A stretch of 64,000 bases of DNA, taken from the NCBI GenBank assembly GCA_965227695.1, contig OZ245760.1:317034-381033 (forward strand). The letters run 5' to 3'. The position numbers and the translations under genes were made by a program. Below are positions 26,168 to 64,000 of this stretch, one piece after another. The notes beneath the pieces are model-generated. The model worked only from the letters and a program-made list of their open reading frames with translations. It made no database searches and was not told the DNA's origin. Position 1 is the stretch's first letter; each line of letters starts with the position of its first letter. Source of the stretch: Gammaproteobacteria bacterium. Its GTDB lineage: Bacteria > Pseudomonadota > Gammaproteobacteria > UBA4575.

Positions 26168-29688
<3,521 letters not shown>

Positions 29689-32356: not shown

Positions 32357-32534
32357 GGGCTTTTAAACTAATTAGGTAGTATTTAATCGAACAGACATGT
32401 TTCATCAGGGATGAGATATTATTCTATTCTGAATGAATGAAGCCTGAAAGCGCATTATAATTATTGACAAATGTGTGGCTGGCAATTACTGTTTGCGCCC
32501 CTTCGAGATTTAATCACAAAACCGGGTAATTGAA

Positions 32535-32669: not shown

Positions 32670-32672
32670 CCA

Positions 32673-33264: not shown

Positions 33265-33289
33265 ATAAACTTCTTAAAGATTACATTAA

Positions 33290-34945
33290 ATGGACAACCA
33301 ACGCTTTTTCCTATACGTCTCACTATTGTTTGTGCTGTATTTATTATGGAGCTCATGGTCCCGTGAAAATATGGAGCCCGTCGAGCCGAATGTTGCACAG
33401 CAACAGGGCTCGGTCAATCAAAGCCAGGTACAAGACGATGTGCCCGCCGCTGCCGCCGCTGCTGGGCCAGGGTCTGTAGGTTCCAGCGATCCCGGGATCC
33501 AGTCCCCGGATGAGTATGTAACCGTTGAAACTGATGTATATACTCTATTTATCAATACGCGGGGCGCGGATATTCACCGAATTGAATTGAAGACATATCC
33601 AGTAGATATTGACCATAAGGACCAGCCTCTTGTCCTGCTGGATAACCGGGCCAAAACATATATCAGCCAGTCTGGTTTACTACACGACAGGATCGCGAAC
33701 ATAGATGTCGCGTCACTTGCCCCTAATCATCACGATATTTACGAAACTGAAAATAATAAATATGTCCTCGCCGAAGGACAGGATGAATTGATAATCCCGT
33801 TTAAATGGCGAGGTGAAAATAATGTAGAAGTGATCAAGAATTATCGTTTTAACCGCAGCGAATTTTTAATTCATGTTGATTACCAGATAACAAATAGTGG
33901 TGATCAGGACTGGATAGGTCGACAGTATCGACAGTTAAGGCATAGCTATGTCCAGGGTGAGAGAAGTCTGCTTCGACTGCCGACATATACCGGTGGTGCC
34001 TACTATGACACAAAATACGAAAAAATCTCTTTTGATGACATGCGGGAAGAGCCGCTGGCAACAGAAATTACTGGTGGCTGGGCAGGCATGTTACAACATT
34101 ACTTTTTTTCTGCGTGGCTGGCAGAAAAATATGAGACGAATTACTACTATACAAATGTCGTCAATAATAATGTCGGGTCAGATTATATTATTGGTCTGCG
34201 TTCTGAACCTGTCAGAATCGCCCCGGGTGAAACAGCGCAGTTTCAGGGCCGATTATATGCCGGTCCAAAACTACAAAAGAAAATTGAAAAAATTCAGCCG
34301 GGCCTGGAACTGACAACCGACTATGGGATGTTCACTCCCCTGTGCAAACCTTTATTCTGGATTCTGGATTTCATTCATCAGTATGTGAACAACTGGGGCT
34401 GGGCAATTATTCTTGTGACACTGCTGATTAAAATCGTCTTTTACCGATTATCCGCTGCCAGTTATAAATCGATGGCCAGAATGAGAAAAGTGCAACCAAA
34501 AATGGTTGCACTGCGGGAACGTTACGGTGACGATAAACAGAAACTGAATACCGCTCTTTGGGACCTTTACAAGAAGGAAAAAATCAATCCATTGGGCGGA
34601 TGCCTTCCAATCCTGATCCAGATGCCCGTATTCCTGTCTTTATATTGGGTGTTAATTGAAAGTGTTGAAATGCGCCATGCACCATTCATACTGTGGGTGC
34701 AGGATCTGTCATCAAAAGACCCTTTCTTTATACTCCCGTTGCTAATGGGTATATCAATGTTTGTTCAGTTCAAACTGAATCCCAAGCCACCGGATCCAAT
34801 GCAGGAAAAAATATTTATGATCATGCCTGTTTTCATGACAGCATTTATGGCATTTTTTCCGGCAGGGCTCGTGTTGTACTGGTTTGTAAATAACCTGCTT
34901 TCAATAGCACAACAATGGTACATCACCAAGAAATATGCCGATTAA
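33290..34945 (+). CDS. yidC: membrane protein insertase YidC
   Basis: 551 aa with a periplasmic domain and the conserved C-terminal 5-TM core (WGWAIILVTLLIK). Confidence 0.95.
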   Translation: MDNQRFFLYVSLLFVLYLLWSSWSRENMEPVEPNVAQQQGSVNQSQVQDDVPAAAAAAGPGSVGSSDPGIQSPDEYVTVETDVYTLFINTRGADIHRIELKTYPVDIDHKDQPLVLLDNRAKTYISQSGLLHDRIANIDVASLAPNHHDIYETENNKYVLAEGQDELIIPFKWRGENNVEVIKNYRFNRSEFLIHVDYQITNSGDQDWIGRQYRQLRHSYVQGERSLLRLPTYTGGAYYDTKYEKISFDDMREEPLATEITGGWAGMLQHYFFSAWLAEKYETNYYYTNVVNNNVGSDYIIGLRSEPVRIAPGETAQFQGRLYAGPKLQKKIEKIQPGLELTTDYGMFTPLCKPLFWILDFIHQYVNNWGWAIILVTLLIKIVFYRLSAASYKSMARMRKVQPKMVALRERYGDDKQKLNTALWDLYKKEKINPLGGCLPILIQMPVFLSLYWVLIESVEMRHAPFILWVQDLSSKDPFFILPLLMGISMFVQFKLNPKPPDPMQEKIFMIMPVFMTAFMAFFPAGLVLYWFVNNLLSIAQQWYITKKYAD

Positions 34946-34959
34946 CAAGTAATGCTGTT

Positions 34960-36285
34960 GTGTCAAACACAGATACCATTTGCGCGCTGGCAACTGCTGT
35001 AGGGAATGCCAGCGTCGCAGTCATCCGTCTATCCGGTGAACGCTCACTCTCGATCGCTCAACAGGTCACGAAAATTAAGCTCAAGCCTCGTTATGCCCAT
35101 TTGGCATCATTCTATGATGGTGATGATCAAATCATTGACCAGGGTCTGACGATATACTTTCCTGCTCCCAGGTCATTCACTGGCGAGGAGACAGTAGAGT
35201 TGCATCCACACGGCAGTCCGTATGTATGTCAGCTGATCACTCAACAGCTTATCAATCATGGAGCGCGCCATGCTTTACCCGGTGAATTTAGTGAGCGGGC
35301 CTTTATCAACGGTAAGCTGGATTTAACACAACTGGAGGCGATCGCCGATCTTATCAATAGCGGATCCCAGCAGGCCGCCAGGTCGGCGGTTAAATCGATG
35401 CAGGGAAACTTTTCAAAAAAAATAAACCATTTGTTAGAACAGCTGATTCAGATTCGCACCCATATTGAAGCCTCACTGGATTTTGCAGAAGAAGAGATTG
35501 AAACCGAGACACGTGACGCCGTTGAAAGTCAGCTGTCTTCTTTAACAAAACAGATTATCGAGCTGTTTGATATCGCGCAACGGGGAGCACAATTACAAAA
35601 AGGCTATACTGTTGTATTAACCGGAAGCCCCAATGTTGGCAAATCTTCCCTGTTTAACGCGCTGTGTGAGCAAAGCAGGGCTATTGTTACCAGTATCCCG
35701 GGGACCACTCGTGATATTTTATCCGCTGACATACAAATTGATGGTGCACCCATACGCCTTCTGGATACCGCAGGCATACGTGAACATGCTGATCCTGTCG
35801 AGCAACAGGGCATTGAAAGGGCGCAGACGGCGCTGGATAGCGCCGATGTCATCGTACAGCTATTGGATGCAAGCGTGATAGATCAGGATCACCGGTTTGA
35901 CAATGCGTCGGCGCGACATTTACTGGTCGTGAATAAGTGTGACTTAATTGATCACAGAATGCATTTTCCTAGTCATGTCATTGGTGTATCAGCTAAAACC
36001 GGGGAAGGAATACACGGGCTGAGAAAAAGGATTCAGCAAATACTTCATAGTGCACCGGCGCAGTATGAAGCTCCATTCTCCGCGCGAACTCGTCACCTTG
36101 AAGCGTTACAGCGATGTCTGGAGCATTGTCAATCGGCACAAGCGCAAATTGGCACTTCAAACCCCATTGAACTGGCCGCCGAAGAATGTCGTCTTGCACA
36201 GCGGTGTCTGAGTGAAATTACCGGTGAGTTTACCGCAGATGACTTACTCGACTATGTTTTTCGCGAATTTTGTATCGGAAAGTGA
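34960..36285 (+). CDS. mnmE: tRNA modification GTPase MnmE
   Basis: G-domain GSPNVGKSS, DTAGIR, NKCD. C-terminal CIGK. Start tentatively at the in-frame GTG (34960) just after the yidC stop. ORF-track start 34915 overlaps yidC. Confidence 0.85.
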   Translation: MSNTDTICALATAVGNASVAVIRLSGERSLSIAQQVTKIKLKPRYAHLASFYDGDDQIIDQGLTIYFPAPRSFTGEETVELHPHGSPYVCQLITQQLINHGARHALPGEFSERAFINGKLDLTQLEAIADLINSGSQQAARSAVKSMQGNFSKKINHLLEQLIQIRTHIEASLDFAEEEIETETRDAVESQLSSLTKQIIELFDIAQRGAQLQKGYTVVLTGSPNVGKSSLFNALCEQSRAIVTSIPGTTRDILSADIQIDGAPIRLLDTAGIREHADPVEQQGIERAQTALDSADVIVQLLDASVIDQDHRFDNASARHLLVVNKCDLIDHRMHFPSHVIGVSAKTGEGIHGLRKRIQQILHSAPAQYEAPFSARTRHLEALQRCLEHCQSAQAQIGTSNPIELAAEECRLAQRCLSEITGEFTADDLLDYVFREFCIGK

Positions 36286-36335
36286 CATTCGTTACGCTAT
36301 GATTCAGGTCCAGCAAGTCAAAAATTACTATAACT

Positions 36336-38252
36336 ATGCAGCATCAATTTGAAGTCATCGTGATCGGGGGCGGGCATGCCGGAACAGAGGCTGCGCTGGC
36401 TGCGGCCAGAATGGGAATACAAACCCTGTTATTAACGCAAAACATCGAAACCATCGGGCAAATGAGCTGTAATCCCGCCATTGGCGGAATTGGTAAAAGC
36501 CATCTGGTGAGAGAAATTGATGCCATGGGTGGTTGTATGGCGATCGCCGCGGATCATGCCGGGATCCAGTTTCGTGTATTGAATCGACGCAAGGGACCTG
36601 CCGTACGTGCAACACGCGCTCAAACAGATCGCGCTCTGTATCGCCAGTCAATCCGTTCTATCATCGAGAACCAAGTCAACCTGTCCATATTCCAGCAGGA
36701 AGTCGATGACCTCATTGTCGAGCAAGGTCGGGTCAGAGGCGTAATGACCCGCATGGGTCTTAAGTTCAGTGCTCAGGCAGTCATATTAACTGTAGGGACT
36801 TTTTTGGGCGGTAAAATATTTGTTGGTCCGCAAACCTATCAGTCCGGGCGCGCGGGTGATGCCGCCTCCATCCGACTGGCCGACCGTTTACGAGAACAGC
36901 CTCTGGATGTTGATCGCCTCAAGACCGGAACTCCGCCACGCATTGATGGTAAAACAATAAATTATTCGAAAATGGAAGCACAGCCCGGTGATCAACCGCT
37001 GCCGGTTTTCTCATTTATGGGCAATTCCCGGCAACATCCGCGCCAGGTAAACTGCCATATCACATACACTAATGAAAAAAGCCACGAGATTATTCGTCAC
37101 GCCATTCATGAATCTCCGATGTACAGTGGTGCTATTAAGGGCGTGGGACCACGTTACTGTCCGTCAATAGAAGATAAAGTCATGCGCTTTGCCGAGCGTG
37201 AGAGACATCAGGTATTTATTGAGCCGGAAGGGCTGCATACACAAGAAGTCTATCCGAACGGCATTTCCACCAGCCTGCCATATGAAGTACAAATGGAGAT
37301 GGTTCATAGTATTGTCGGGCTTGAAAACTGTCATATCACACGTCCTGGTTATGCCATCGAATATGATTTCTTCAACCCAATGGGCTTACAGCCCACACTG
37401 GAAACCAAATCATTGGCCGGTCTTTATTTTGCCGGACAAATCAATGGCACAACGGGTTATGAAGAGGCGGCTGCACAGGGTTTAATGGCCGGTATCAATG
37501 CTGCGCGACAAGTACAGAATGAAGCACCCGTCGTATTGCGTCGTGACCAGGCCTACATTGGCGTGATGATTGATGACCTGGTGACACGTGGAACTCAGGA
37601 ACCATATCGCATGTTTACCAGCCGGGCGGAATACCGGCTAATTCTGCGTGAAGATAATGCGGATTTGCGATTGACCAGCCTGGCTAACGATCTGGGTTTG
37701 ATTGACCCTGCCCGATGGTCACGCTTTTGCCGGAAAAAAGAAACCATTGAAAAAGAGCAACAACGGCTTGAACGAACCTACATACAGACATCCGACGTTA
37801 ATGAAGAGCAAAGCCTGCGCTTATTTGGCAGCAAACTGGAACATGAATACAGCCTTGCAAATTTACTGCGTCGGCCAGCTGTGAGCTATCAGTCATTCAC
37901 AGAACTGCCGAGACAGGGTCCGTATGTTGAGGATCAGGAGATCATTGAACAAATCGAAATCCAGGCCAAGTATGCCGGATACATGCAGCGACAGGCAGCA
38001 GAAATCGAAAAATCAAAGCGCCTTGAAGATACCGTCATACCTGATCAGTTCGATTATCACAAGATTAAGGGATTATCCAACGAGGTCCTTCAGAAACTCA
38101 CAACAATCAAGCCCAGAACGGTAAGCCAGGCCTCACGAATATCGGGTGTCACCCCGGCTGCGGTTTCTTTACTGCTTGTACACTTAAAAGCGCGCAGTCA
38201 AAAATCGTCTGACATGATACAGAAAGATGTCCGCATGGCTGGTGATGCATAA
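36336..38252 (+). CDS. mnmG: tRNA uridine 5-carboxymethylaminomethyl modification enzyme MnmG (GidA)
   Basis: 638 aa. N-terminal FAD motif [14 protein letters not shown]. Confidence 0.95.
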
Positions 38253-38288
38253 GCTGGCAGGTATTGATTAGTTTTAACGCTGACCAAA

Positions 38289-38912
38289 ATGGATGCGCGC
38301 ACACACCTGCAAGCGGGAATTAGCCAGCTCGCACTGACGCTATCTGAAAGTCAAATAGAAAACCTGTTAGGTTATGTGCACATGATTCAGGAGTGGAATC
38401 GGGCATATAATCTGGTGGGTACATCCAGTACCGAGATTTTGATTAATAAACATATCCTGGATAGCCTCGCGATCTTGCCTTTTGTCACTCAGGGGCCCGT
38501 ACTGGATGTTGGCAGTGGCGCCGGGCTGCCAGGTATTCCTTTAGCTATTGCGTTACCTGACATATCATTCACCTTACTGGACGCCAATGGTAAAAAAACC
38601 AGATTTATGCGTCATGTCATTATGCAGCTTAAGATGAGTAATATTGATATCGTGCAAAACAGAATAGAGCACTACCAGGCTGAGCCTGCACCAAATATTG
38701 TGTTATCACGTGCTTTCGCACCCGTTGACAAAGCACTGCAACTGATGAGTGACGTGTGTGCACCAAAAGGTACACTGCAGATAATGCTTGGTATGCCCCC
38801 CGCCCGGCTGGAAGATCATGAACAAGGTCATCAGACAAAATTATTTTCCATTTCAGTTCCCTATCTCAATTCACAACGCCACTTGCTGGTCGCACGACGA
38901 GACTCGTGCTGA
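38289..38912 (+). CDS. rsmG: 16S rRNA m7G527 methyltransferase RsmG (GidB)
   Basis: 207 aa. SAM motif LDVGSGAGLPGIPLAI. Confidence 0.9.
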   Translation: MDARTHLQAGISQLALTLSESQIENLLGYVHMIQEWNRAYNLVGTSSTEILINKHILDSLAILPFVTQGPVLDVGSGAGLPGIPLAIALPDISFTLLDANGKKTRFMRHVIMQLKMSNIDIVQNRIEHYQAEPAPNIVLSRAFAPVDKALQLMSDVCAPKGTLQIMLGMPPARLEDHEQGHQTKLFSISVPYLNSQRHLLVARRDSC

Positions 38913-39691
38913 TGGCCCGGATATTTGCGGTAACCAATCAAAAAGGCGGTGTGGGTAAAACTACCACCACCGTCAATCTGGCCGCCTCACTGGCGGCCGC
39001 CAAACGTCAGGTACTGCTGGTCGACCTTGATCCACAGGGAAACGCAACCATGGGTTCCGGAATCGACAAGCGGGAATTGGAAAAATCTGTGGCCGATGTA
39101 TTGCTTGAGCAGAACAGCATTCAAAATTGCATCTACCCAAGTGAAACAGCCGGCTTCGACGTGTTGCCATCGAATGAGCAATTAACGACGGCAGAGGTTG
39201 GTTTGCTTACTGCGCGCGGCAAGGAATTTAAGTTACGCCTGGCGTTACAGCAGGTGACAGAACAATACGATTATATTGTAATAGACTGCCCGCCTGCGCT
39301 GAATATGTTGACAGTGAATGCGCTGGTTGCCGCACAGGCCGTCATTATACCGACCCAGTGCGAATACTATGCCCTGGAGGGACTTTCCGCTTTGCTTGGA
39401 ACAATAGAGCGAGTCAGACAGGGCGCCAATCCTGAATTAAAAGTGGGTGGCGTACTGCGTACCATGTTTGATCCGCGTAACAATCTGGCCAATGATGTCT
39501 CTTCACAGCTTACTTCCCACTTTGGCGACAGTGTTTATCGCACTATCATTCCCAGGAATGTCACGTTAGCCGAGGCACCCAGCCATGGGTTGCCTGTTAT
39601 TCGCTATGATAAAGGTTCGCGCGGTGCACGCGCCTATATCGCGCTGGCCGGCGAGGTGCTCAGAAGGGAAGAATCCACGCAATCTACATGA
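38906..39691 (+). CDS. parA: chromosome partitioning ATPase ParA (Soj)
   Basis: 261 aa. Walker A NQKGGVGKTTT. Confidence 0.9.
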   Translation: MLMARIFAVTNQKGGVGKTTTTVNLAASLAAAKRQVLLVDLDPQGNATMGSGIDKRELEKSVADVLLEQNSIQNCIYPSETAGFDVLPSNEQLTTAEVGLLTARGKEFKLRLALQQVTEQYDYIVIDCPPALNMLTVNALVAAQAVIIPTQCEYYALEGLSALLGTIERVRQGANPELKVGGVLRTMFDPRNNLANDVSSQLTSHFGDSVYRTIIPRNVTLAEAPSHGLPVIRYDKGSRGARAYIALAGEVLRREESTQST

Positions 39692-40587
39692 GAATGACTA
39701 TGGGCGGACAAAAAAAACGTAAAGGACTGGGTAATCTGGGAGTCGATATTCTACTATCTACACCGGTTGATACTGACCCGCCAGAACAAAAACAGAATAG
39801 TTCAGAGGGACTCGATTATCTGTCAATCGACTTGATCGACCGTAGCCCATACCAGCCTCGTCAAATCATGCAGGAGGAGGGCTTGGCCGAGCTGGCAGAT
39901 TCCATTAAAAGTCAGGGCCTGATCCAGCCGGTAGTCGTTAGAAAAGTGGCTAATCGGTATGAATTAATCGCGGGTGAACGTCGTTGGCGTGCTGCACAAC
40001 TGGCAGGACTGGAGCACATACCCGCAATAATCAAGCCTGTTGATAACGAATCGGCCGCTGCCATGGCACTGATTGAGAATTTACAAAGAGAAAACCTCAA
40101 TCCTGTTGAGGAAGCGCAGGCCATGGCAAATTTAACCAAAGAGTTTGACTGGACCCATCAGGAAGTGGCCGATGTATTGGGCAAAGCACGCGCCACCGTC
40201 AGCAACATGTTACGTCTACTCGAATTGTCAACAACGGTCCGCGATTTGATTAAACACGAAAAGCTGACCATGGGACATGCAAGAGCCCTGTTATCACTCC
40301 CGGCCAACCAGCAGGATCAGGTCGCTGAATTGGTGGTCACCAAAAAGTTGTCTGTCCGCCAGTGTGAACAGGAAATTCGTCGTCGCCTTCAAGGCGAAAA
40401 CCTATCGCCCAAAAATGACAAGAAAGATCCAAATATCCTGAACCTGGAACATTCGATTGCGGATGTGCTCGGCGCCTCCGTGCTGATAAAATCATCGGCC
40501 AATCACAAAAAAGGGAAAATAGAAATCAAGTACAATAGTTTGGATGAATTGGACGGCATCCTGCGTAAAATTGGTGCGAAACTTTAA
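39688..40587 (+). CDS. parB: chromosome partitioning protein ParB (Spo0J)
   Basis: 299 aa. ParB box GERRWRAA. HTH. C-terminal dimerisation region. Confidence 0.9.
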   Translation: MRMTMGGQKKRKGLGNLGVDILLSTPVDTDPPEQKQNSSEGLDYLSIDLIDRSPYQPRQIMQEEGLAELADSIKSQGLIQPVVVRKVANRYELIAGERRWRAAQLAGLEHIPAIIKPVDNESAAAMALIENLQRENLNPVEEAQAMANLTKEFDWTHQEVADVLGKARATVSNMLRLLELSTTVRDLIKHEKLTMGHARALLSLPANQQDQVAELVVTKKLSVRQCEQEIRRRLQGENLSPKNDKKDPNILNLEHSIADVLGASVLIKSSANHKKGKIEIKYNSLDELDGILRKIGAKL

Positions 40588-51116: not shown

Positions 51117-52550
51117 ATGTCCATTGGAAAAGCAGTTTCGAGCTCAGTGCGATGGATGGTTGGAATGCGCGTAATAAGCCAAGTTTTTACTTGGGCTGCC
51201 ACGTTGATAGTAATTAGACTTCTCTCGCCTGAAGATTACGGCTTGATGGCCCTAGCATATGTAGTTATTGGGCTTTTAGATATTCTTGATGATATGGGCT
51301 TAGCGTCAGCGATAGTCAATAAAAAAGAGTTAACAGATAACTTTGTTCAAAAGATATTTGGTATGCTCTTTATATTCAACACCGGCTTCTATGTACTATT
51401 ATTTTTATCTGCTCCACTGGTTGCTAATTTCTTCGATGATCAAAGATTATCAATTATTATCCAAGTCTTAGGGTTGCAAACTATAATAAGGATATTTTTT
51501 TATATTCCAAACGCGCTTATGCGTCGAAATATGGAATTTAAAAGTGTGTCCCTCATTAAATTTTCTGCTGTATTATCACAGAGCATTATAATTTTATTTT
51601 TTGCATATCAAGGCTATGGTGTATGGTCATTAGTATATGGTGGGCTAGTTTATAGTATCGTTCAAACGATAGGATCAATGGCGCTTTCACACTATTTTCG
51701 ATTACCCGTTTTTTCATTTAAAGGGATTAGTGGAGCACTGAGCTTTGGAGGATTGATCACAGCACACAGGCTCCTGTACTATTTTTACGCATCTGCGGAT
51801 GCAGTTGTTTTAGGCAAGATATCTGGTCAGAAATCATTAGGCTATTATGCAGTGGCCAACCAAATTGCAAGTCTGCCTATCGATAAGTTTATGATGATTC
51901 TAAATGAAGTTGGTTTTTCTGCATTTTCAACTATTCAGGAGGACCAACGAAAGATGAATGATCTTTTATGTAAAGCAGTGCGGTTGCTCGGTATAGTCGT
52001 ATTTCCAGTTTTTATGGGTGTGTCGTGTACTGCGCCGGAGCTAGTCGAGGTAATATTGGGTGATAAATGGATGCCGGTTGCAACACCTTTACAAATAATT
52101 AGTGCTGTAATGGCGCTAAAAATGATGAATATTACAGATCCACTATTGTTCGCCATTGGCCGCCCGGATATTGGAGTAAAGGCTTTAGCTATTGGGTGTG
52201 TGATTATGCCGGTTGCTTTCTATATAGGGGCACATTGGGGAGCAGTTGGCGTAGCTTTTGCCTGGTTAGTCGCATATCCGCCGTATTTCTGTATTGCAAT
52301 GAAGTTTGTTCTTAGAACAATAGGAATGAGGTTAACTACTTATATTCGCGAATTCATATATCCAGCCGTATTTAGTGGTATTATGTATCTCGCGGTGACT
52401 TTGGTTAGAGAAGTTATAAGCCCACATTTGAACAATACTGTATTAGAATTGATAGTGCTGGTATTTGTTGGGGTGCTGACGTACACCACACTAGTGCTAT
52501 TGTTTCAAAGGGATGCTTTAAAACAACTATTCTCTATGGTTAGATACTGA
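51117..52550 (+). CDS. MOP-superfamily polysaccharide flippase (Wzx/PST family)
   Basis: 477 aa, about 12-14 TM helices. PST-family N-terminus (VISQVFTWAATLIVIRLLSPEDYGLMALAYVVIG). Confidence 0.75.
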   Translation: MSIGKAVSSSVRWMVGMRVISQVFTWAATLIVIRLLSPEDYGLMALAYVVIGLLDILDDMGLASAIVNKKELTDNFVQKIFGMLFIFNTGFYVLLFLSAPLVANFFDDQRLSIIIQVLGLQTIIRIFFYIPNALMRRNMEFKSVSLIKFSAVLSQSIIILFFAYQGYGVWSLVYGGLVYSIVQTIGSMALSHYFRLPVFSFKGISGALSFGGLITAHRLLYYFYASADAVVLGKISGQKSLGYYAVANQIASLPIDKFMMILNEVGFSAFSTIQEDQRKMNDLLCKAVRLLGIVVFPVFMGVSCTAPELVEVILGDKWMPVATPLQIISAVMALKMMNITDPLLFAIGRPDIGVKALAIGCVIMPVAFYIGAHWGAVGVAFAWLVAYPPYFCIAMKFVLRTIGMRLTTYIREFIYPAVFSGIMYLAVTLVREVISPHLNNTVLELIVLVFVGVLTYTTLVLLFQRDALKQLFSMVRY

Positions 52551-56621: not shown

Positions 56622-56828
56622 TCATAGGCCGACGATGAATTGATATATCAGCAACACTGCGAGTATGACGAGTAAGAATATACTTTTACGGGAATTAGTG
56701 CGTTTAGTTTTTCCGTGCTGCTTGTTTGTTGTGATGATAACAGGCGAGTCCTGTTCATCGGGGACCTTAACCTCAAAGTTTTTCAGTGAGAGATTTGGAT
56801 TCACAACGGTTTCTTCAAACTTGTCCAT
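56622..56828 (-). CDS. hypothetical tail-anchored small membrane protein (ORFan)
   Basis: 68 aa: soluble N-terminus, basic stretch KQHGKTKRTNSRK, then one C-terminal TM helix. AT-rich. No recognisable family. Confidence 0.3.
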   Translation of the reverse strand: MDKFEETVVNPNLSLKNFEVKVPDEQDSPVIITTNKQHGKTKRTNSRKSIFLLVILAVLLIYQFIVGL

Positions 56829-57050
56829 ATTCTAATTCCAAAGTTAAAATGACATCCTTGTCCTGCAGCTCCTTTGAATTAGAATTTAATAGTAGTAGGC
56901 TGAATTTTATGCACGATGGTTCACAAAATTATGGCCTTTATTAATTTTTGACTATTTTTTTTCCATAATTTGAACGTGTTCTCAATTTTTAAACCATATA
57001 TAACCGTGTGAGTTAAGTAATCATGACATCTATTTTATAAATTTGAACCG

Positions 57051-57635
57051 TTACTTGAATGCCGGATTATACTTTTCATTCCATAGCGAATAGATAGAGG
57101 ATAGCTGTTCATTTTTCCGAATCGGCTGCCTGCTTTCAATCTTGATATTGGTTAGTGCCGGCGCCGGTATTTCATTACACTCAGTTTCCATAAAATCATC
57201 TATCACCGTAACAGGATCATTACCGGCCTCCATAGCATCATTGCCGGCTGTTGATTTCAGTTCTGCCATGATCGTTAAATTTTCAGTTTCTTTTATATCA
57301 CTGAATTCCCCTAGAATTTCACGTGAATAGTAAGTACAGCGGTTAAATGCCGCGGTATGGCTGCTGCCCATTTTGAGATCCGATAAAGTCAGTCTTTTAA
57401 TTAATTGTTTGGTTGCGGAATGTTTCTCCTGGCCTAAATAAGTAATGGATTCCAGATAACATTCTGTTAGATGATTGAGTATATGCAGTAATAAGACTTC
57501 ATCCAGCTGCTCAATTTTGGACTTGTAATCTTTTTCTAATAAAAGAATCAGACAGCAAAGTTTATTGCGTGCTTGTCTGTCATTACTTTCCGACTGGTTT
57601 AGATAGTTCAACGCCTGACGACTCAACGAGTTCAT
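57051..57635 (-). CDS. hypothetical protein (ORFan), helical N-terminal half and acidic C-terminal half
   Basis: Start set at the internal Met MNSLSRQ, which has a strong SD (aaggaaatttggATG). The ORF-track start 57767 adds 44 aa with no RBS. No motif recognised. AT-rich codon usage. Confidence 0.5.
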   Translation of the reverse strand: MNSLSRQALNYLNQSESNDRQARNKLCCLILLLEKDYKSKIEQLDEVLLLHILNHLTECYLESITYLGQEKHSATKQLIKRLTLSDLKMGSSHTAAFNRCTYYSREILGEFSDIKETENLTIMAELKSTAGNDAMEAGNDPVTVIDDFMETECNEIPAPALTNIKIESRQPIRKNEQLSSIYSLWNEKYNPAFK

Positions 57636-57873
57636 CCAAATTTCCTTCTGAGTGTAGTTTATAATTATTATGCCAAGTGTCTCTATGCACTTGATCTTGT
57701 TAGCATTGAATCGTATTGCTAGTGAAGAAAAGAGGCTGTGAATCAGGTCGCAATATAGAATCAACATAGCGTGCCTGCTTCAAATAAATTCAGTTATAAA
57801 AGTAGGTGATGACGTTGTCTTTTTCCAATGATTATTGCCTGGTTACAAGTAACCAAATGATACTTAGAGGGTT

Positions 57874-58095
57874 CTACTTATCGAGCTCAAATCTTAAATT
57901 TTCAATCTCATACAAGTACTGGTTATTGGTCTGCTTAAGTACAGCGATTAACTTTTCAAGCTTGTATTGAATATTCTTTTTATAAGATTCACTTGGATTG
58001 ACGCAATCCTCATATTCAAAAAAACTTTCCAGTGTATCTTGCAGCAGTAGACCAATACTGTCCTCATCGTGAATATTAAAATGCTCCTTGCCCAT
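57874..58095 (-). CDS. hypothetical small acidic protein (ORFan); may be spurious or leaderless
   Basis: 73 aa predicted helical. The ATG abuts the T-run of a terminator with no room for an SD. Confidence 0.25.
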   Translation of the reverse strand: MGKEHFNIHDEDSIGLLLQDTLESFFEYEDCVNPSESYKKNIQYKLEKLIAVLKQTNNQYLYEIENLRFELDK

Positions 58096-58824: not shown

Positions 58825-58847
58825 GATGATATCATTTCTCATAATCA
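58825..58847. promoter_or_regulatory. Fur-box-like AT-rich palindrome upstream of the Fur-family gene
   Basis: gatgatatcatttctcataatca contains the perfect 10-bp palindrome atgatatcat and GATAAT-like hexamers. It lies in the 85-bp gap between the thiO-like gene and the Fur-family gene. Confidence 0.35.
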
Positions 58848-59903
58848 CAGATGTGCGTAACTTCGTTCCTGCAGAGAAAGGGAGGCCCCATTATCGCATA
58901 CCCAGTTCATCAGGATCTGTGCGGATGTTGGCGCCATGGCTACCCCGTATCTAAAATGGCCGCAATTGAAGTATAGGCCCTTGATTTCAGGGTGTGGCCC
59001 AATGGTTGGCACATTACCTGGGGAGCCTGGCCGCAGTCCTGCCCATTGATTTTCAATAGGTGCTTTGGAAAGCTGTGGCATGATTTCGATGCCGCGCTGC
59101 CATAGTGTCTTTTTGGCATCAGTGGTGATCGAGTCATCATAACCACTATATTCCAGCGTGCTTCCGACTAATACCAAACCGTCTCTACGGGGGATCAAAT
59201 AATAGCCATCCTGGTAAAGAATACGGTCAAGGACGCCAGGATTTCCTCTTAAGGCAATGATTTGACCTTTAACCGGTGTGATCTCAGGAGTACGGATGAT
59301 TGCTTGATGCGGGGTAAATCGAGGTAACCAGCTCCCTGCGGACCAGATAATATTCGCTGTCTTGATCATCCCGGAAGAGGTGTCAATACCTGTAATTTTA
59401 TTTTGACTGATCCGGCAGCTCGAGACAGTGGTGCCGGGGAGCATTGTTACCTCGAGTCTGTTCAGCTCTGCCATTAATGCCTTGATTACACGAGGTGGGC
59501 GAACCTGGGAAACTTGTGGCAGGTAAAGTGGGCCGGTGCGATGGGTGTCATGTTGGTATTGAAGAGTATGGTGATTACACCAGTCATATATTTGTGGGAA
59601 TTCCATGTCCGTGGACAGGATGTTCATGCCGCATGGCCAATATTCAATGTCATGTTGCGAATTTTCAAAAAGTGTGCGGGCAAGCATTTGATATGCTTTG
59701 TTGGCATGCTGTGTCAGATATAAAACATTGTCGTCATATTGCCAGGGCAGAAGTGGGGTAAGTATGCCACCTGCGGCCCAACTACTCTCTAAGCCAAAAT
59801 TACCCTTGTCTAAAATGACAGGCTTTGTGCCACGAAGCGCCAGAAGATAGGCGCTATAGAGGCCAATTATTCCTCCACCGACTATGATTATGTCAGATTT
59901 CAT
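58845..59903 (-). CDS. FAD-dependent oxidoreductase, DAO family (glycine oxidase ThiO-like)
   Basis: IIVGGGIIGLYSAYLL dinucleotide fold. ThiO-like GGILTPLLPW and C-terminal GLRPGSPGNVPTIG...GHFRYG. No TPP riboswitch upstream, so the thiamine role is uncertain. Confidence 0.8.
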   Translation of the reverse strand: MKSDIIIVGGGIIGLYSAYLLALRGTKPVILDKGNFGLESSWAAGGILTPLLPWQYDDNVLYLTQHANKAYQMLARTLFENSQHDIEYWPCGMNILSTDMEFPQIYDWCNHHTLQYQHDTHRTGPLYLPQVSQVRPPRVIKALMAELNRLEVTMLPGTTVSSCRISQNKITGIDTSSGMIKTANIIWSAGSWLPRFTPHQAIIRTPEITPVKGQIIALRGNPGVLDRILYQDGYYLIPRRDGLVLVGSTLEYSGYDDSITTDAKKTLWQRGIEIMPQLSKAPIENQWAGLRPGSPGNVPTIGPHPEIKGLYFNCGHFRYGVAMAPTSAQILMNWVCDNGASLSLQERSYAHL

Positions 59904-59951
59904 TATTTATAAAAATTTTTAGTATAAATAATCATTCAATTCGTAAAACAT

Positions 59952-59969
59952 TGTTAAATATGTTTAACA
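59952..59969. promoter_or_regulatory. 7-4-7 palindrome TGTTAAA-tatg-TTTAACA upstream of marR (candidate MarR operator)
   Basis: Exact inverted heptamers about 75 bp upstream of the marR start, in the divergent thiO-like/marR spacer. Confidence 0.4.
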
Positions 59970-60043
59970 TTTAATGCATTGAAATAATAACATTGGGATA
60001 ATCAGTACCTTCAAAGCATATAAGCACTTATGAGGTATAACAC

Positions 60044-60457
60044 ATGATTACGGCCCGCGAATTCAATAAGGAAATTGTACCGAAAAAATTGACTGATTTA
60101 CGCTCTCCGGCAAAAGATCGCGCCAACATACTGGTTGATTTAACCGTCATGTCGCGCCAGGTCGGTTACTCAATCAGTAAAAAAGTGTCACGTTTTGGGA
60201 TCAATTATAATCTGTGGCAGGTGTTGGTTACCTTATGGAGTGAGCATGCTGTGACACCAGCAGCTGTGGCCCAGCACTTACAGGTTGAACCTGCAACTAT
60301 CAGCCGTTATCTTGATCAGCTGGAGTCGCTGGATTATATAACCCGAGAAAGAAGTAAGACAGATCGTCGTGTGGTAGACGTTGTTTTAACAGCAAAAGGT
60401 AACAAGGCTGTCAAGGCGGGTTTAAATGAACTGGATGAGCTCGGCAAAATGTTTTAG
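60044..60457 (+). CDS. MarR-family transcriptional regulator
   Basis: 137 aa. wHTH region TPAAVAQHLQVEPATISRYLDQLESLDYITRERSKTDRR. Confidence 0.85.
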   Translation: MITAREFNKEIVPKKLTDLRSPAKDRANILVDLTVMSRQVGYSISKKVSRFGINYNLWQVLVTLWSEHAVTPAAVAQHLQVEPATISRYLDQLESLDYITRERSKTDRRVVDVVLTAKGNKAVKAGLNELDELGKMF

Positions 60458-60557
60458 TTTTAAAGGCGCAGGTCCATATGGTTGGCAAAAGAAAACCAGC
60501 ATTTAACCTTATTGAGAAATAGTCAAAAGAAATTTCACCCCCGTATATTACAATAGC

Positions 60558-61772
60558 GTGACTTCTGGACCGATATTGTCATGCATAATGCAAGCTAAAC
60601 TTCTCAGGGATCTTTCTATACACCCCAAGATCGCAGATACCTCGCCGCCCCCGTTAATCGCGCATATTCTGTATCGCTTTGCAATTGGCGGGCTGGAGAA
60701 TGGAGTGGTAAATCTGATTAACCGGATTCCTGAATCCAGATATCGACATGTCATTATATCTCTAACAGACGCAACCGATTTTCAGCAACGTATCCAACGC
60801 AAAGATGTTGAGATTTACTGCTTAAACAAGAAGCCTGGACATGATCCGGGCGTTTATTTTCGTCTCTGGAAGTTACTCCGAAAATTAAAGCCTGACATTA
60901 CCCATACCAGAAATCTGGCTGCACTGGAAATGGTGCTGATAGCATTATTGGCTGGGGTAAAACGAAGAGTGCATAGCGAGCATGGCTGGGGAATGAGTGA
61001 CCTTCACGGAACCAACCCAAAATATCAGCTGCTAAGACGCTACATGAGCAAACTGACTCACCGCTATATCGGCCTGTCACGCCACATTACAGATTACTTG
61101 CAGAATGAGGTAGGAGTGAATAAGGCTAAGCTGGAGCAAATATATAATGGCGTAGATACAGACCGATTCAATTGTTTACATGTATCGCAACCGATACTAG
61201 ACCTGCCGAAGAATATTGATAAGGAATGCATTGTTATCGGTACTGTCGGGCGTATGGAACCTGTCAAGGCACAGACATTACTTGCCGAAGCGTTTGTACG
61301 CCTTCATCAGGAATGCAGGCACTTACAAAACAGACTTCGTCTTGTAATGATCGGTGATGGTGAACTCAGGATGCAAATCGAGCAGATCCTTGATAATGCT
61401 GGTCTTTTGCAACAATGCTGGTTACCAGGCAGCTGTAATAATGTACCTGCGGTTATGAAACACCTCGATGTATTTGTCTTACCATCACAAAATGAAGGAA
61501 TATCAAATACCATCCTTGAAGCGATGGCATGCGGACTGCCGGTGATAGCAACAAGAGTGGGCGGAAATCCGGAGCTGGTGACAGATCAGAAAACCGGATT
61601 GCTGGTGCCTGCTGACAACCCGCATAAGTTGATGCTGGCCTTAAAAATTTATGTAGAAAATGAATCTATGAGGAAAGTGCATGGAGAAGCCGGCTATCAG
61701 GTCATCTCAGACAGGTTCAAGATCGAGCACATGATTGACAACTATCTGTCTGTTTACGATAGCCTGATATAA
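60558..61772 (+). CDS. GT4 glycosyltransferase, resembling the PEP-CTERM/EpsH1-associated sugar transferase family
   Basis: N-terminal LIAHILYRFAIGGLENGVVNLINRIPESRYRHVIISL, which I recall as typical of the exosortase-associated stp family. C-terminal GT4 EX7E region (EGISNTILEAMACGLPVIATRVGGNPELV). The start could be the Met at 60588. Confidence 0.75.
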   Translation: MTSGPILSCIMQAKLLRDLSIHPKIADTSPPPLIAHILYRFAIGGLENGVVNLINRIPESRYRHVIISLTDATDFQQRIQRKDVEIYCLNKKPGHDPGVYFRLWKLLRKLKPDITHTRNLAALEMVLIALLAGVKRRVHSEHGWGMSDLHGTNPKYQLLRRYMSKLTHRYIGLSRHITDYLQNEVGVNKAKLEQIYNGVDTDRFNCLHVSQPILDLPKNIDKECIVIGTVGRMEPVKAQTLLAEAFVRLHQECRHLQNRLRLVMIGDGELRMQIEQILDNAGLLQQCWLPGSCNNVPAVMKHLDVFVLPSQNEGISNTILEAMACGLPVIATRVGGNPELVTDQKTGLLVPADNPHKLMLALKIYVENESMRKVHGEAGYQVISDRFKIEHMIDNYLSVYDSLI

Positions 61773-61975
61773 ATTAATGAATCTCCGGATGTGCCGAGTA
61801 ATTCAAGTTATACAAATGAATCATGGCACATAATACATACTAACTAATTGTATGGACAGCCATTTTAGATGTATTACTGGAAATACGTGCCACCAGAATA
61901 AGTATAGACTTGGCATCGCCACTAGCAATTATACCAGTCATATTTCTATAACTTTTTCAATATTGGATAACACAT

Positions 61976-63868
61976 ATGTGTGGAATAACGGGGATATTCG
62001 ATACCAGGGCAAAGCGCTCAATTGATGTCGAATTATTACGGCGAATGAATGATTCGCAATATCATCGTGGTCCAGACCAGGAAGGGCTTCATACTGAAGA
62101 AGGTGTTGGGCTTGGTCATCGACGTCTTTCGATCATTGATTTATCAAGCGGTAAGCAACCCCTATATAATGAAGACAATTCAGTTGTTGTGGTATACAAC
62201 GGAGAGATATACAACTATCAGTCATTGGCTGAGGAACTCCAGGCCGCCGGCCATGTCTTCAGAACACGTTGCGATACTGAAGTCATCGTTCATGCCTGGG
62301 AACAATGGGGTGTTGCTTGTGTAGAACGTTTTCGTGGCATGTTCGCTTTCGCCATATGGGACAGAAACAAAAAGACACTGTTTTTGGCCAGAGATCGCCT
62401 GGGTATTAAACCGCTTTATTATTCTTTACTGTCAGACGGTAATTTAATATTCGGTTCAGAATTGAAATCATTAATGAAACATCCACGTCTGGTGCGAGAT
62501 ATAGATCCATTGGCAGTAGAGGATTATTTCGCTTATGGATATGTCCCTGAGCCAAAGACAATTTTTAAAAATACATTTAAATTGTCGCCCGGCCACTGCT
62601 TAACCATAAAACATGGTGAAACACTTCCCGCGCCGGTTGAATATTGGGATGTGCCTTTTGAGCAGCATGGTCCTATGGATGAGCAGGAGACCTGTGATGA
62701 GTTAATCCGGCGGTTAAGAGAAGCAGTCGACATTAGGCTGGTTGCGGAAGTACCGCTTGGCGCATTTTTATCAGGCGGAGTGGACTCAAGTGCGGTGGTT
62801 GCCATGATGGCCGGATTAAATGATTCCGCAGTAAATACATGTTCCATATCATTTGGCGATCCAAAATTCAACGAAGCGTCATACGCACAAGCGATAGCTG
62901 AAAAATATAATACTGAACATTATGTTGAGCAGGTAGACCCGGATGATTTTGACTTGGTTTCAAAATTAGGTGGGTTGTATGATGAACCATATGCTGATAG
63001 TTCTGCAATGCCTACCTATAGATTATGCCAGCTGGCAAGAAAGAATGTAACGGTGGCATTGTCAGGTGACGGAGGTGATGAAAATTTTGCAGGATATCGG
63101 CGTTATCGCTGGCATAATTATGAGGAGCATATCAGGTCTGCGCTGCCCTTAGGGTTAAGAAAGCCTGTTTTTGGAACGCTTGGACATATTTATCCAAAGG
63201 CAGACTGGGCGCCAAAAGTATTTCGCGCCAAGACAACGTTTGAGGCGATGGCACGCGATACCTGCGAGGGATATCTGCATAGTGTCAGTTTATTCAGCGA
63301 CAAGCAGAGAAACATGCTATTTAATGATTCTTTTAAAAATATTTTGCAGGGATACAATGCCGTTGAGGTATTACGCCACCATGCAGGACGGGCGCCAACA
63401 GATCACCCATTGTCTCTGGTGCAATATATGGATATGAAAACCTATTTGGTAGGGGACATCCTGACCAAAGTTGATCGGGCTAGTATGGCACATTCACTGG
63501 AAGTACGTGTGCCGTTGCTGGACCATAAGTTTGTAGAGTGGATATCAGGGTTATCCCCGCAAATAAAACTTAAAGGGACAGAGGGTAAATATATTTTTAA
63601 AAAATCGCTTGAGCCTTATCTGTCTCAGGATATTTTATACCGGAAAAAAATGGGGTTTGGTGTGCCTCTGGCCAGTTGGTTTAGAGGTCCACTTAAAGAA
63701 AAAGTGCAAACTGCTATTCTGGGAGAGAGATTAAACAGTAGCGGTGTATTTGATCATAAATATCTGAAACACCTTGTTGAACAGCACCAGTCGGGCGTGC
63801 GGGATTACAGTGCACCCATCTGGTCATTACTGATGTTCGAATCATTTTTGCAACGTCTTGATAGATAG
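61976..63868 (+). CDS. asparagine synthase (glutamine-hydrolysing) homologue, exosortase-associated amidotransferase type
   Basis: 630 aa. MCGITGIF Ntn nucleophile. SGGVDSS PP-loop. Longer than housekeeping AsnB, as in EPS-locus amidotransferases. Confidence 0.85.
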   Translation: MCGITGIFDTRAKRSIDVELLRRMNDSQYHRGPDQEGLHTEEGVGLGHRRLSIIDLSSGKQPLYNEDNSVVVVYNGEIYNYQSLAEELQAAGHVFRTRCDTEVIVHAWEQWGVACVERFRGMFAFAIWDRNKKTLFLARDRLGIKPLYYSLLSDGNLIFGSELKSLMKHPRLVRDIDPLAVEDYFAYGYVPEPKTIFKNTFKLSPGHCLTIKHGETLPAPVEYWDVPFEQHGPMDEQETCDELIRRLREAVDIRLVAEVPLGAFLSGGVDSSAVVAMMAGLNDSAVNTCSISFGDPKFNEASYAQAIAEKYNTEHYVEQVDPDDFDLVSKLGGLYDEPYADSSAMPTYRLCQLARKNVTVALSGDGGDENFAGYRRYRWHNYEEHIRSALPLGLRKPVFGTLGHIYPKADWAPKVFRAKTTFEAMARDTCEGYLHSVSLFSDKQRNMLFNDSFKNILQGYNAVEVLRHHAGRAPTDHPLSLVQYMDMKTYLVGDILTKVDRASMAHSLEVRVPLLDHKFVEWISGLSPQIKLKGTEGKYIFKKSLEPYLSQDILYRKKMGFGVPLASWFRGPLKEKVQTAILGERLNSSGVFDHKYLKHLVEQHQSGVRDYSAPIWSLLMFESFLQRLDR

Positions 63869-63882
63869 GCGAACCAGATCAT

Positions 63883-64000
63883 ATGACGGCAATGAGTGAT
63901 CGTTTAAAAGTTGGAATAGTCGGACCACTACCACCACCCTCCGGGGGGATGGCGAATCAGACGCAGCAGTTAGCGAATTTATTAAAGGGTGAAAACATTC
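63883..64000 (+). CDS. glycosyltransferase (GT4-like), N-terminal fragment cut by the window end
   Basis: MTAMSDRLKVGIVGPLPPPSGGMANQ is a GT4-type N-terminus. It continues past 64000. Confidence 0.55.
   Translation, partial: MTAMSDRLKVGIVGPLPPPSGGMANQTQQLANLLKGENI

What the first reader, a model, noticed from the sequence alone, without database searches (positions are those of the whole stretch)
60044..64000. Start of an exosortase/PEP-CTERM-type exopolysaccharide locus (MarR, GT4 stp-like, AsnB-like amidotransferase, GT4)
The GT4 has the GGLENGVVNLIN N-terminus that I associate with the PEP-CTERM/EpsH1-associated sugar-transferase family. The 630-aa asparagine-synthase paralogue matches the exosortase-A-associated amidotransferase architecture. 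A third transferase continues past the window end. This predicts an XrtA/EpsH exosortase, PEP-CTERM substrates and chain-length/export genes immediately downstream. Such loci are poorly characterised in gammaproteobacteria.
Basis: partly seen in the sequence, partly recalled or inferred. Interest (0 to 1): 0.5.

Follow-up and report, generated by a model that had tools for sequence, protein, structure and literature searches.

The report
Exosortase-type sugar genes without an exosortase

Summary
The ORFs are real. They are MarR (60044-60457), a GT4 (60588-61772), a 630-aa AsnB-like amidotransferase (61976-63868), and the first 39 codons of another GT4 (63883-64000).

The family calls hold. The GT4 scores 499.5 bits on TIGR03088 (cutoff 409). 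The amidotransferase scores 1095.9 bits on TIGR03108 (cutoff 816.9).

The locus-level prediction fails. In canonical XrtA loci, xrtA lies immediately upstream of stp2. The order is deacetylase-FemAB-stp1-XrtA-stp2-amidotransferase-stp3-GT-CapK-like ligase. Here that upstream place is taken by marR and thiO.

Eight syntenic loci carry the cassette: the window plus seven relatives, with 70-96% amidotransferase identity. One relative is a closed 2.4-Mb genome of the uncultured marine order UBA4575. In the six relatives that extend past the amidotransferase, the cassette ends after one more GT4 and a PaaK/CapK-like ligase. Next come thiS, thiG and trmB.

No exosortase, FemAB, ATPase, stp1 or canonical deacetylase was found in the 64-kb window or the relatives' loci.

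So this is the exosortase-distal half of an XrtA operon, detached and placed behind a highly conserved MarR. It probably builds or decorates an amidated (uronamide) glycan.

Whether an exosortase exists elsewhere in the genome could not be tested. Interest is modest.

The parts
58845..59903 (-). thiO (glycine oxidase). This is the left boundary of the cassette and is transcribed divergently from marR.
   Evidence: TIGR02352 scores 242.2 bits, just under its cutoff of 250.8. Pfam DAO is recorded at the same place in all syntenic relatives.
59930..59992 (.). Conserved block in the thiO-marR intergenic region. It contains the palindrome TGTTAAA-TATG-TTTAACA at 59952-59969. It is a candidate MarR operator and divergent promoter region.
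   Evidence: The block is nearly invariant across 6 relatives while the flanking intergenic sequence has diverged. Promoter-like hexamers on both strands overlap it, but promoter-like sites are no more frequent here than in shuffled sequence. The operator function is inferred.
60044..60457 (+). MarR-family winged-helix regulator, the first gene of the cassette.
   Evidence: Pfam MarR scores 48.6 bits. It is 86-99% identical across the clade (93-99% in four of the five relatives compared), against 79-82% for AceE in the three distant relatives that carry it. Its 90%-identity cluster has 66 members. It was not found in any canonical XrtA locus.
60588..61772 (+). GT4 glycosyltransferase of the TIGR03088 'stp2' family.
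   Evidence: TIGR03088 scores 499.5 bits against a cutoff of 409.05. The GGLENGVVNLIN motif and an EX7E motif (EGISNTILE, residue 303) are present. The 394-aa form is confirmed in the collection.
61976..63868 (+). Glutamine-dependent AsnB-type amidotransferase of the TIGR03108 family.
   Evidence: TIGR03108 scores 1095.9 bits against a cutoff of 816.9. Cys2 and the SGGVDS PP-loop are present. The closest solved structures are 7YLZ hydroxyamidotransferase (3.5e-63) and E. coli AsnB 1CT9. It is 86-87% identical in relatives, more conserved than AceE.
63883..64000 (+). N-terminus (39 codons) of a second GT4 ('GTb'), cut by the window end.
   Evidence: The translation MTAMSDRLKVGIVGPLPPPSGGMANQT... 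aligns to the 358-aa GT4 of L082/L083 and to the GT4 after stp3 in canonical loci such as L024. The full-length homologue matches no curated XrtA GT family.
51117..52550 (+). Lone MOP/Wzx-type flippase between glmS and aceE. It is a possible partner of the cassette, not shown to be one.
   Evidence: Pfam Polysacc_synt_3 scores 256.6 bits. NF007773 scores 218.6 bits, below its cutoff of 273. It is conserved at this place in relatives. The link to the cassette is only an inference.

Best explanation
This is a compact, self-contained five-gene cassette: marR, a GT4 (stp2 family), an AsnB-type amidotransferase, a second GT4 and a PaaK/CapK-like adenylate-forming ligase. The last one and a half genes lie beyond the window end. 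The cassette sits between thiO and thiS-thiG in the core chromosome of an uncultured marine gammaproteobacterium, near or in GTDB order UBA4575.

It is the exosortase-distal segment of a canonical XrtA/PEP-CTERM exopolysaccharide operon (xrtA-stp2-amidotransferase-stp3-GT-capK-like). It has become detached from xrtA and from all genes upstream of xrtA, has lost stp3, and has acquired a MarR regulator.

Proposed mechanism:
1. MarR binds the conserved palindrome in the thiO-marR intergenic region and gates transcription of the operon.
2. The two GT-B, EX7E-type GT4 enzymes add two sugars from nucleotide sugars to a lipid-linked or other glycan acceptor.
3. The amidotransferase hydrolyses glutamine at Cys2. 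It adenylates a sugar carboxylate (a uronic acid) at its PP-loop site and converts it to the carboxamide (uronamide), as WbpS/PGN_1234 does.
4. The CapK-like enzyme activates a carboxylate as an acyl-AMP, to attach an acyl or aminoacyl decoration.

Shown: gene content, family membership, catalytic motifs, cassette boundaries in relatives, descent from XrtA-linked homologues, and strong conservation. Inferred: the substrates, the product, MarR control, and where the glycan ends up.
For: - Family scores are above the curated cutoffs.
- The canonical gene order was established with NCBIfam on L001 and L086 and mapped across about 25 XrtA loci.
- GTb and the CapK-like gene recur right after stp3 in canonical loci L005, L006, L010, L011, L024 and L026.
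- The cassette has identical boundaries in L082 (a closed 2,402,513-bp genome), L083-L085, L087 and L003.
- The window clade is monophyletic. It nests within XrtA-linked amidotransferases and is sister to L086+L001.
- No XrtA, FemAB, ATPase or stp1 was found, even at E<=10 with profiles built from 17-28 sequences. The deacetylase profile gave only weak hits to the divergent gene of L003/L087.
- Cys2, the PP-loop and EX7E motifs are intact.
- The amidotransferase (86-87% identity) and MarR (93-96%) are more conserved than AceE (79-80%) in L082/L083.
- There is a conserved palindromic block upstream of marR.
- An AsnB paralogue (PGN_1234/WbpS) has been shown experimentally to make glucuronamide. 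The same paper reports that asparagine-synthase genes of XrtA loci, which fall in TIGR03108, match it by PSI-BLAST (PMC7468200).
Against: - The window ends 39 codons into the third transferase. The right half of the cassette is therefore seen only in relatives at 70-87% identity. The 96% relative, L081, is also cut there.
- No initiating transferase, polymerase or exporter is in the cassette, so it cannot act alone.
- TIGR03088 and TIGR03108 were defined by co-occurrence with XrtA. Scores above cutoff argue that an exosortase may exist elsewhere in the genome.
- No substrate has been determined for any TIGR03108 member.
- The promoter and terminator scans were no better than shuffled sequence.
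Confidence: 0.62

Rival explanations
1. Split XrtA system. The genome carries xrtA, PEP-CTERM substrates and the export and regulatory genes at another chromosomal site. This cassette supplies the glycan steps for that system in trans.
For: - Both marker proteins exceed the cutoffs of families built on co-occurrence with XrtA.
- Several other genomes also show the amidotransferase without XrtA within 10 kb: L004, L007, L008, L014, L025 and L036. Dispersed arrangements may therefore be common.
- The cassette lacks any membrane or export component of its own.
Against: - xrtA is immediately upstream of stp2 in the great majority of the canonical loci mapped (about 20), the exceptions being L008, L011 and L018. 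Exactly that junction is replaced here.
- No XrtA-system gene occurs in 64 kb of the source genome or in the relatives' loci.
- No PEP-CTERM-like tail was found in the window (a low-power test).
- The genomes are small, 2.4-2.7 Mb.
- Haft et al. note that only EpsH itself lacks homologues in PEP-CTERM-negative species (PMC1569441).
Confidence: 0.33
2. Ordinary Wzx/Wzy-type O-antigen, core or capsule decoration genes that merely resemble XrtA-linked families. They would work with the lone Wzx-like flippase 9 kb upstream.
For: - A MOP/Wzx flippase lies at 51117-52550 and is conserved at that place in relatives.
- AsnB paralogues (WbpS type) act in O-antigen/LPS pathways (PMC7468200).
- In L003 the cassette enzymes diverge faster than housekeeping genes, as surface-glycan genes often do.
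Against: - Four of the cassette genes have their closest relatives, in the same order, inside XrtA operons. The resemblance is therefore descent, not coincidence.
- No Wzy, Wzz or priming transferase was seen near the cassette.
- The flippase is separated from the cassette by aceEF, three unknown genes, fur and thiO.
Confidence: 0.25
3. The 630-aa protein is simply the cell's housekeeping asparagine synthetase, and the neighbouring transferases are unrelated.
For: It passes the general asparagine synthase model TIGR01536 (509.4 bits against a cutoff of 267.1) and has intact glutaminase and PP-loop motifs.
Against: - It fails the AsnB model NF006949 (306.4 bits against a cutoff of 499), while it passes TIGR03108 by 279 bits.
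- It is followed within 14-25 bp by GT4 and capK-like genes in every relative.
- It groups with XrtA-locus paralogues.
Confidence: 0.04

Closest known systems
Canonical XrtA (exosortase A)/PEP-CTERM exopolysaccharide locus (Haft et al. 2006, PMC1569441), exemplified here by L001 (Chromatiaceae MAG) and L086
   Same: The stp2 (TIGR03088) and amidotransferase (TIGR03108) genes are orthologous and lie in the same order and orientation. The GT4 and CapK/PaaK-like ligase that follow are also found after stp3 in many canonical loci.
   Different: Missing in cis are xrtA/epsI, stp1, FemAB (TIGR03019), the deacetylase (TIGR03006), wecB, the ATPase (TIGR03015), the outer-membrane protein (TIGR03016), stp3 and the Wzy_C-type ligase (TIGR03097). 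A MarR regulator found in none of the canonical loci heads the cassette. The cassette sits inside the thiO/thiSG thiamine cluster.
WbpS / PGN_1234 uronamide-forming AsnB paralogue of Porphyromonas gingivalis (Veith et al. 2020, PMC7468200)
   Same: Both are AsnB-type glutamine amidotransferases encoded among sugar-modifying genes. Deleting PGN_1234 abolished glucuronamide formation. The paper reports that asparagine-synthase genes of XrtA loci, which fall in TIGR03108, match PGN_1234 by PSI-BLAST.
   Different: I did not compare the two sequences directly. The P. gingivalis gene works in a Wbp/Vim pathway tied to type IX secretion. No Wbp genes lie next to the cassette here.
Solved AsnB-fold enzymes: 7YLZ hydroxyamidotransferase and E. 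coli asparagine synthetase B (1CT9)
   Same: They share the two-domain architecture of an Ntn glutaminase plus a PP-loop synthetase, matched over residues 1-380.
   Different: Similarity is only moderate (217 and 159 bits). The C-terminal 250 residues, where the acceptor substrate is expected to bind, are not covered by the best matches, so the substrate cannot be transferred.

Membership tests
TIGR03088 (stp2) PEP-CTERM/XrtA system glycosyltransferase | Whole-protein HMM score at or above the curated cutoff of 409.05 bits | tested here: met
   The score is 499.5 bits, E 5.8e-150, covering profile positions 2-373 of 374.
TIGR03088 (stp2) PEP-CTERM/XrtA system glycosyltransferase | N-terminal GGLENG..NL.N signature that separates it from other GT4s of the locus | tested here: met
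   GGLENGVVNLIN is present. The motif occurs in 22 of 32 stp2-like ORFs and 0 of 36 stp1/stp3 ORFs.
TIGR03088 (stp2) PEP-CTERM/XrtA system glycosyltransferase | Encoded next to exosortase A (xrtA directly upstream in canonical loci) | tested here: not met
   The genes upstream are marR and thiO. No XrtA hit occurs in the window or the syntenic loci.
TIGR03108 XrtA/PEP-CTERM system amidotransferase | Whole-protein HMM score at or above the curated cutoff of 816.9 bits | tested here: met
   The score is 1095.9 bits, full length 1-627 of 628.
TIGR03108 XrtA/PEP-CTERM system amidotransferase | Catalytic Cys2 glutaminase nucleophile and SGGxDS PP-loop | tested here: met
   The N-terminus is MCGITGIF and SGGVDS lies at residue 266.
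TIGR03108 XrtA/PEP-CTERM system amidotransferase | Groups phylogenetically with amidotransferases of XrtA loci | tested here: met
   In the NJ tree the window clade is nested among XrtA-linked sequences, sister to L086+L001.
XrtA/PEP-CTERM protein-sorting and EPS system (as a system) | An exosortase A gene (TIGR03109 / PF09721) in the locus | tested here: not met
   phmmer and a 26-sequence profile find none in the 64-kb window or in L003, L081-L085 and L087. No PF09721 is recorded among called genes within 10 kb in relatives.
XrtA/PEP-CTERM protein-sorting and EPS system (as a system) | An exosortase A gene anywhere in the genome | not testable with these tools
   The source contig (2,725,066 bp) is not in the gene-position index. 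The XrtA probe search could not reach the required distance.
XrtA/PEP-CTERM protein-sorting and EPS system (as a system) | PEP-CTERM-tailed substrate proteins | tested here: inconclusive
   A regex scan found no PEP-CTERM-like tails in the window or the relatives' loci. It also found none in canonical loci L001, L002 and L086, so the test has little power over 64 kb.
XrtA/PEP-CTERM protein-sorting and EPS system (as a system) | Chain-length, export and accessory genes (TIGR03006, TIGR03015, TIGR03016, TIGR03019, TIGR03087) adjacent | tested here: not met
   None is present in the window clade. Downstream genes in relatives are thiS, thiG, trmB, SulP and an aldo-keto reductase. The PrsK/PrsR/PrsT regulators and the chain-length/export families (TIGR03007, TIGR03018, TIGR03027) were not searched for specifically.
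Housekeeping asparagine synthetase B | Score at or above the cutoff of the AsnB equivalog NF006949 (499 bits) | tested here: not met
   The score is 306.4 bits.

The most novel reading that the evidence does not exclude
The whole UBA4575-related clade has lost the exosortase and PEP-CTERM sorting. It has kept the stp2-amidotransferase-GT4-CapK-like block for hundreds of millions of years of divergence, under a nearly invariant MarR. If so, this sub-module has an exosortase-independent job, making an amidated and acylated surface glycan. The 'XrtA system' marker families TIGR03088 and TIGR03108 would then not be reliable indicators of an exosortase.
Probability: 0.5. Interest if true: 0.35.

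Novelty: new variant of a known kind. Interest (0 to 1): 0.25.

Why it matters
- Annotation pipelines label these two proteins 'XrtA/PEP-CTERM system' proteins, as NCBI does for the relatives. This locus shows that the label can be correct at the family level while the system is absent from the neighbourhood.
- If the exosortase is absent genome-wide, the cassette isolates the glycan-modifying half of the XrtA operon from the protein-sorting half. That would make it a cleaner place to learn what the still-uncharacterised TIGR03108 amidotransferase and its CapK-like partner do.
- Otherwise it is an ordinary surface-glycan cassette in an uncultured marine lineage.

Tried and rejected
- **Exact look-ups of window proteins.** I tried to fetch the source contig with the amidotransferase, MarR, Fur and the 100%-identical GyrB P0121. 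All failed. The proteins are in the collection on a 2,725,066-bp contig, but that contig is not in the position index.
- **The closest relative.** L081 (96% identity) ends 108 codons into the third transferase, so it does not show the right boundary.
- **The last protein search, used as an XrtA probe.** None was listed. The result is uninformative: the 120th hit scores 348 bits, whereas an XrtA from a lineage as distant as the window clade (L001) scores only 300 bits.
- **PEP-CTERM tail regex.** It found no hits anywhere, including canonical loci, so it has low power.
- **Rfam.** No family matched in the window, so no TPP riboswitch lies near thiO.
- **Promoter and terminator scan.** It found no more sites than in shuffled sequence.
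- **A possible sigma-54-like TGG...GC element.** I looked for one in the conserved CTGGAAAT stretch between the GT4 and the amidotransferase. The spacing is not consistent among relatives, so I dropped it.
- **Curated XrtA families for the third GT and the CapK-like ligase.** I tested TIGR03087, TIGR04063 and TIGR03098. Neither protein is a member, and their homologues inside canonical loci are not members either.


Full report
**Observation.** The + strand between 60044 and 64000 carries four reading frames.
- A 137-aa MarR-family regulator lies at 60044-60457 (Pfam MarR 48.6 bits).
- A GT4 glycosyltransferase follows. Its ORF is open from GTG 60558, but the 394-aa product from ATG 60588 is the form present in the public protein collection.
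- A 630-aa asparagine-synthase paralogue lies at 61976-63868.
- The first 39 codons of another transferase start at ATG 63883, 14 bp later.

In my locus set it is specific for the stp2 type of GT4: 22 of 32 stp2-like ORFs carry it, against 0 of 36 stp1/stp3 ORFs. The amidotransferase has the Cys2 nucleophile (MCGITG) and the SGGVDS PP-loop. The GT4 has an EX7E motif.

Against NCBIfam, the GT4 scores 499.5 bits on TIGR03088 (stp2; cutoff 409.05). The amidotransferase scores 1095.9 bits on TIGR03108 (cutoff 816.9). It also passes the generic asparagine synthase model but fails the AsnB equivalog NF006949 (306 bits against 499), as shown. Family membership by score is therefore met for both. The third transferase was tested through its full-length homologue in L082. 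It is a generic GT4, with 112.7 bits on stp2 and 87.9 bits on stp3, far below both cutoffs.

**What lies beyond the window.** The source genome is a 2,725,066-bp contig held by NCBI and ENA. It is absent from the gene-position index, so exact look-ups failed. Relatives were retrievable.
- L081 (96% amidotransferase identity) is cut just after the amidotransferase.
- L082 (86%) comes from GCA_033344735.1. This is a closed, circular 2,402,513-bp MAG from a red-alga culture, classified as Gammaproteobacteria, order and family UBA4575, genus UBA1858.
- L083-L085 (87%), L087 (79%) and L003 (70%) are all syntenic with the window.

The shared gene order starts with the wzx-like gene, aceE, aceF, three small unknown genes and fur. 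L087 is the exception: it matches the window only from the unknown genes onward and lacks wzx and aceEF upstream. All then share:
- thiO on the opposite strand;
- marR, GT4, amidotransferase, a 358-367-aa GT4 and a 434-463-aa PaaK/CapK-like adenylate-forming enzyme;
- thiS, thiG, trmB, a SulP transporter and unrelated genes.

The cassette is therefore five genes long. It is inserted between thiO and thiS-thiG. Nothing resembling an exosortase, a PEP-CTERM protein, or chain-length or export genes lies within 10 kb downstream in any of the six relatives that extend that far.

**How this compares with real XrtA loci.** A scan of species-representative genomes returned 80 loci with related amidotransferases. 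NCBIfam annotation of L001 (Chromatiaceae) gave the canonical order:
- TIGR03016 outer-membrane protein, TIGR03015 ATPase and wecB;
- TIGR03006 deacetylase, TIGR03019 FemAB and TIGR03087 stp1;
- an XrtA-EpsI fusion (TIGR03109);
- TIGR03088 stp2, TIGR03108 amidotransferase and TIGR04063 stp3.

L086, whose amidotransferase is 73% identical to the window's, shows the same order. It continues with a CapK-like gene and a TIGR03097 Wzy_C-type ligase. Mapping with seed proteins shows this order in about 25 loci. In many of them (L005, L006, L010, L011, L024, L026) stp3 is followed by homologues of the window clade's second GT4 and CapK-like gene.

Two points follow.
- In canonical loci xrtA is immediately upstream of stp2, not downstream. 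In the window that place is occupied by marR and thiO.
- The window cassette corresponds gene for gene to the exosortase-distal end of the canonical operon, minus stp3.

Profile HMMs built from 17-28 locus sequences find no XrtA, FemAB or ATPase in the window or the clade's loci, even at E<=10. The stp1 and stp3 profiles give only weak cross-hits on the cassette's own GT4s. The deacetylase profile gives only weak hits to a divergent gene in L003 and L087.

**Descent.** A neighbour-joining tree of the amidotransferases places the window, L081-L085, L087 and L003 in one clade. That clade is nested among XrtA-linked sequences and is sister to L086+L001. The cassette is thus derived from an XrtA operon rather than being a look-alike. 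The more basal members keep further sugar-modifying genes next to it.
- L003 and L087 carry a divergent deacetylase-like gene between capK and thiS. Homologues of it occur in canonical loci L013 and L025.
- L087 carries an Acetyltransf_6 gene, the Pfam family that FemAB-type proteins also hit.
- The window lineage lacks both.

**Conservation.** Against L082 and L083, the amidotransferase is 86-87% identical and MarR 93-96%. AceE is 79-80%, AceF 55-56%, ThiO 51-54% and the GT4 64-66%. The MarR 90%-identity cluster holds 66 members and spans the clade. The thiO-marR intergenic region contains a block of about 60 bp that is nearly invariant in six relatives. It includes the palindrome TGTTAAA-TATG-TTTAACA at 59952-59969. 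I read this block as the MarR operator and divergent promoter region. That reading is an inference, and the simple promoter scan is not above background.

**Mechanism.** The following steps are inferences from family chemistry and context.
- The two GT4 enzymes presumably perform two glycosyl transfers.
- AsnB-type enzymes adenylate a carboxylate and amidate it with glutamine-derived ammonia.
- The best experimental precedent in a glycan context is P. gingivalis PGN_1234 (WbpS). Its deletion abolished glucuronamide formation. The authors report that asparagine-synthase genes in XrtA loci, which fall in TIGR03108, match it by PSI-BLAST. They also suggest that the FemAB, deacetylase and AsnB genes of XrtA loci make an amino-acid-modified sugar (PMC7468200).
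- I therefore propose uronic acid to uronamide conversion for the amidotransferase.
- For the PaaK/CapK-like enzyme I propose acyl-AMP formation for a further acyl or aminoacyl decoration.
- The closest solved structures are 7YLZ hydroxyamidotransferase and E. coli AsnB. They cover only the first ~380 residues, so they do not fix the substrate.
- The cassette has no membrane component. A lone Wzx-type flippase 9 kb upstream (51117-52550) is conserved at that place in relatives and is a candidate partner, but nothing links them.

**The open question.** I could not test it. I used the last protein search as an XrtA probe, querying with the L086 XrtA. The hope was to see hits carried on the clade's recognisable long contigs. 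None appeared. The list stops at 348 bits, whereas the XrtA of L001, a lineage as distant as the window clade, scores only 300 bits. The negative result therefore carries no weight. A PEP-CTERM regex found nothing, but it also found nothing in canonical loci. Haft et al. noted that all families of the system except EpsH have close homologues in PEP-CTERM-negative genomes (PMC1569441). I put the chance that an exosortase exists elsewhere in this genome at roughly one in three.

**Verdict.** The claim that this is the start of a large exosortase locus with XrtA immediately downstream is not supported. The thing itself is a detached, MarR-headed remnant or sub-module of an XrtA operon. It is conserved across an uncultured marine gammaproteobacterial clade. 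This is a new variant of a known kind and is of modest interest.

Noticed in passing
window 26168-40587, with GC-skew turn at about 30-32 kb: The window spans the chromosomal replication-origin region. Genes confirmed are gyrB, recF, dnaN and dnaA on the - strand, then yidC, mnmE and mnmG on the + strand, with topA at 4118-6445 and atpD, glmU, glmS, aceE and aceF further on. Cumulative GC skew reaches its minimum at 30-32 kb. The cassette therefore sits in the conserved core chromosome, about 30 kb from dnaA, and not in an island.
   Followed up: partly
window 51117-52550 (+): A lone MOP/Wzx-type flippase lies between glmS and aceE with no other polysaccharide genes beside it. Pfam Polysacc_synt_3 scores 256.6 bits. 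NF007773 scores 218.6 bits, below its cutoff of 273. It is conserved at the same place in relatives L082-L085 and L003.
   Followed up: partly
window 60044-60457 (+): MarR is the most conserved protein of the neighbourhood. It is 93-99% identical in L081-L083 and L003 and 86% in L087, while AceE is 79-82% and ThiO 46-54% in the distant relatives. Its 90%-identity cluster has 66 members. Such constraint is unusual for a local regulator.
   Followed up: partly
window 59930-59992: A block of about 60 bp in the thiO-marR intergenic region is nearly invariant in six relatives. It includes the palindrome TGTTAAA-TATG-TTTAACA. No TPP riboswitch, nor any other Rfam family, was found in the window, so thiO here is not preceded by a recognisable THI element.
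   Followed up: partly
window 56622-58095 (-): Three small or unknown ORFs (68 aa, 194-238 aa, 73 aa) lie between aceF and fur and match no Pfam or NCBIfam family. ORFs of the same sizes occupy the same positions in relatives; the 194-aa protein, the only one compared, is 75-96% identical (48% in L087).
   Followed up: no
L087 14401-15363 (-) and 5659-6516 (-); L003 14385-15356 (-): More basal relatives carry extra genes at the edges of the cassette that the window lineage lacks. One is a divergent deacetylase-like protein of about 320 aa (Pfam Polysacc_deac_1 at 22.4 bits, just under the cutoff), which also occurs in canonical loci L013, L019 and L025. The other, in L087 only, is an Acetyltransf_6 protein of 285 aa.
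   Followed up: partly
L003 8064-14338: In the L003 genome, housekeeping proteins are as close to the window as in the other relatives (GyrB 87%, AceE 82%, MarR 95%). The cassette enzymes are much more divergent (amidotransferase 70%, GT4 55%). This suggests allelic replacement or faster evolution of the enzymes behind a fixed regulator.
   Followed up: no
L008 (Methylococcales MAG) 7607-9984; L025 (Marinobacterium rhizophilum) 8559-17920: Some otherwise canonical loci also lack xrtA at the expected place. In L008 stp1 abuts stp2 with no exosortase between them. L025 has stp1-amidotransferase-stp3-GT-stp2-capK with no XrtA, FemAB or deacetylase within 10 kb.
   Followed up: no
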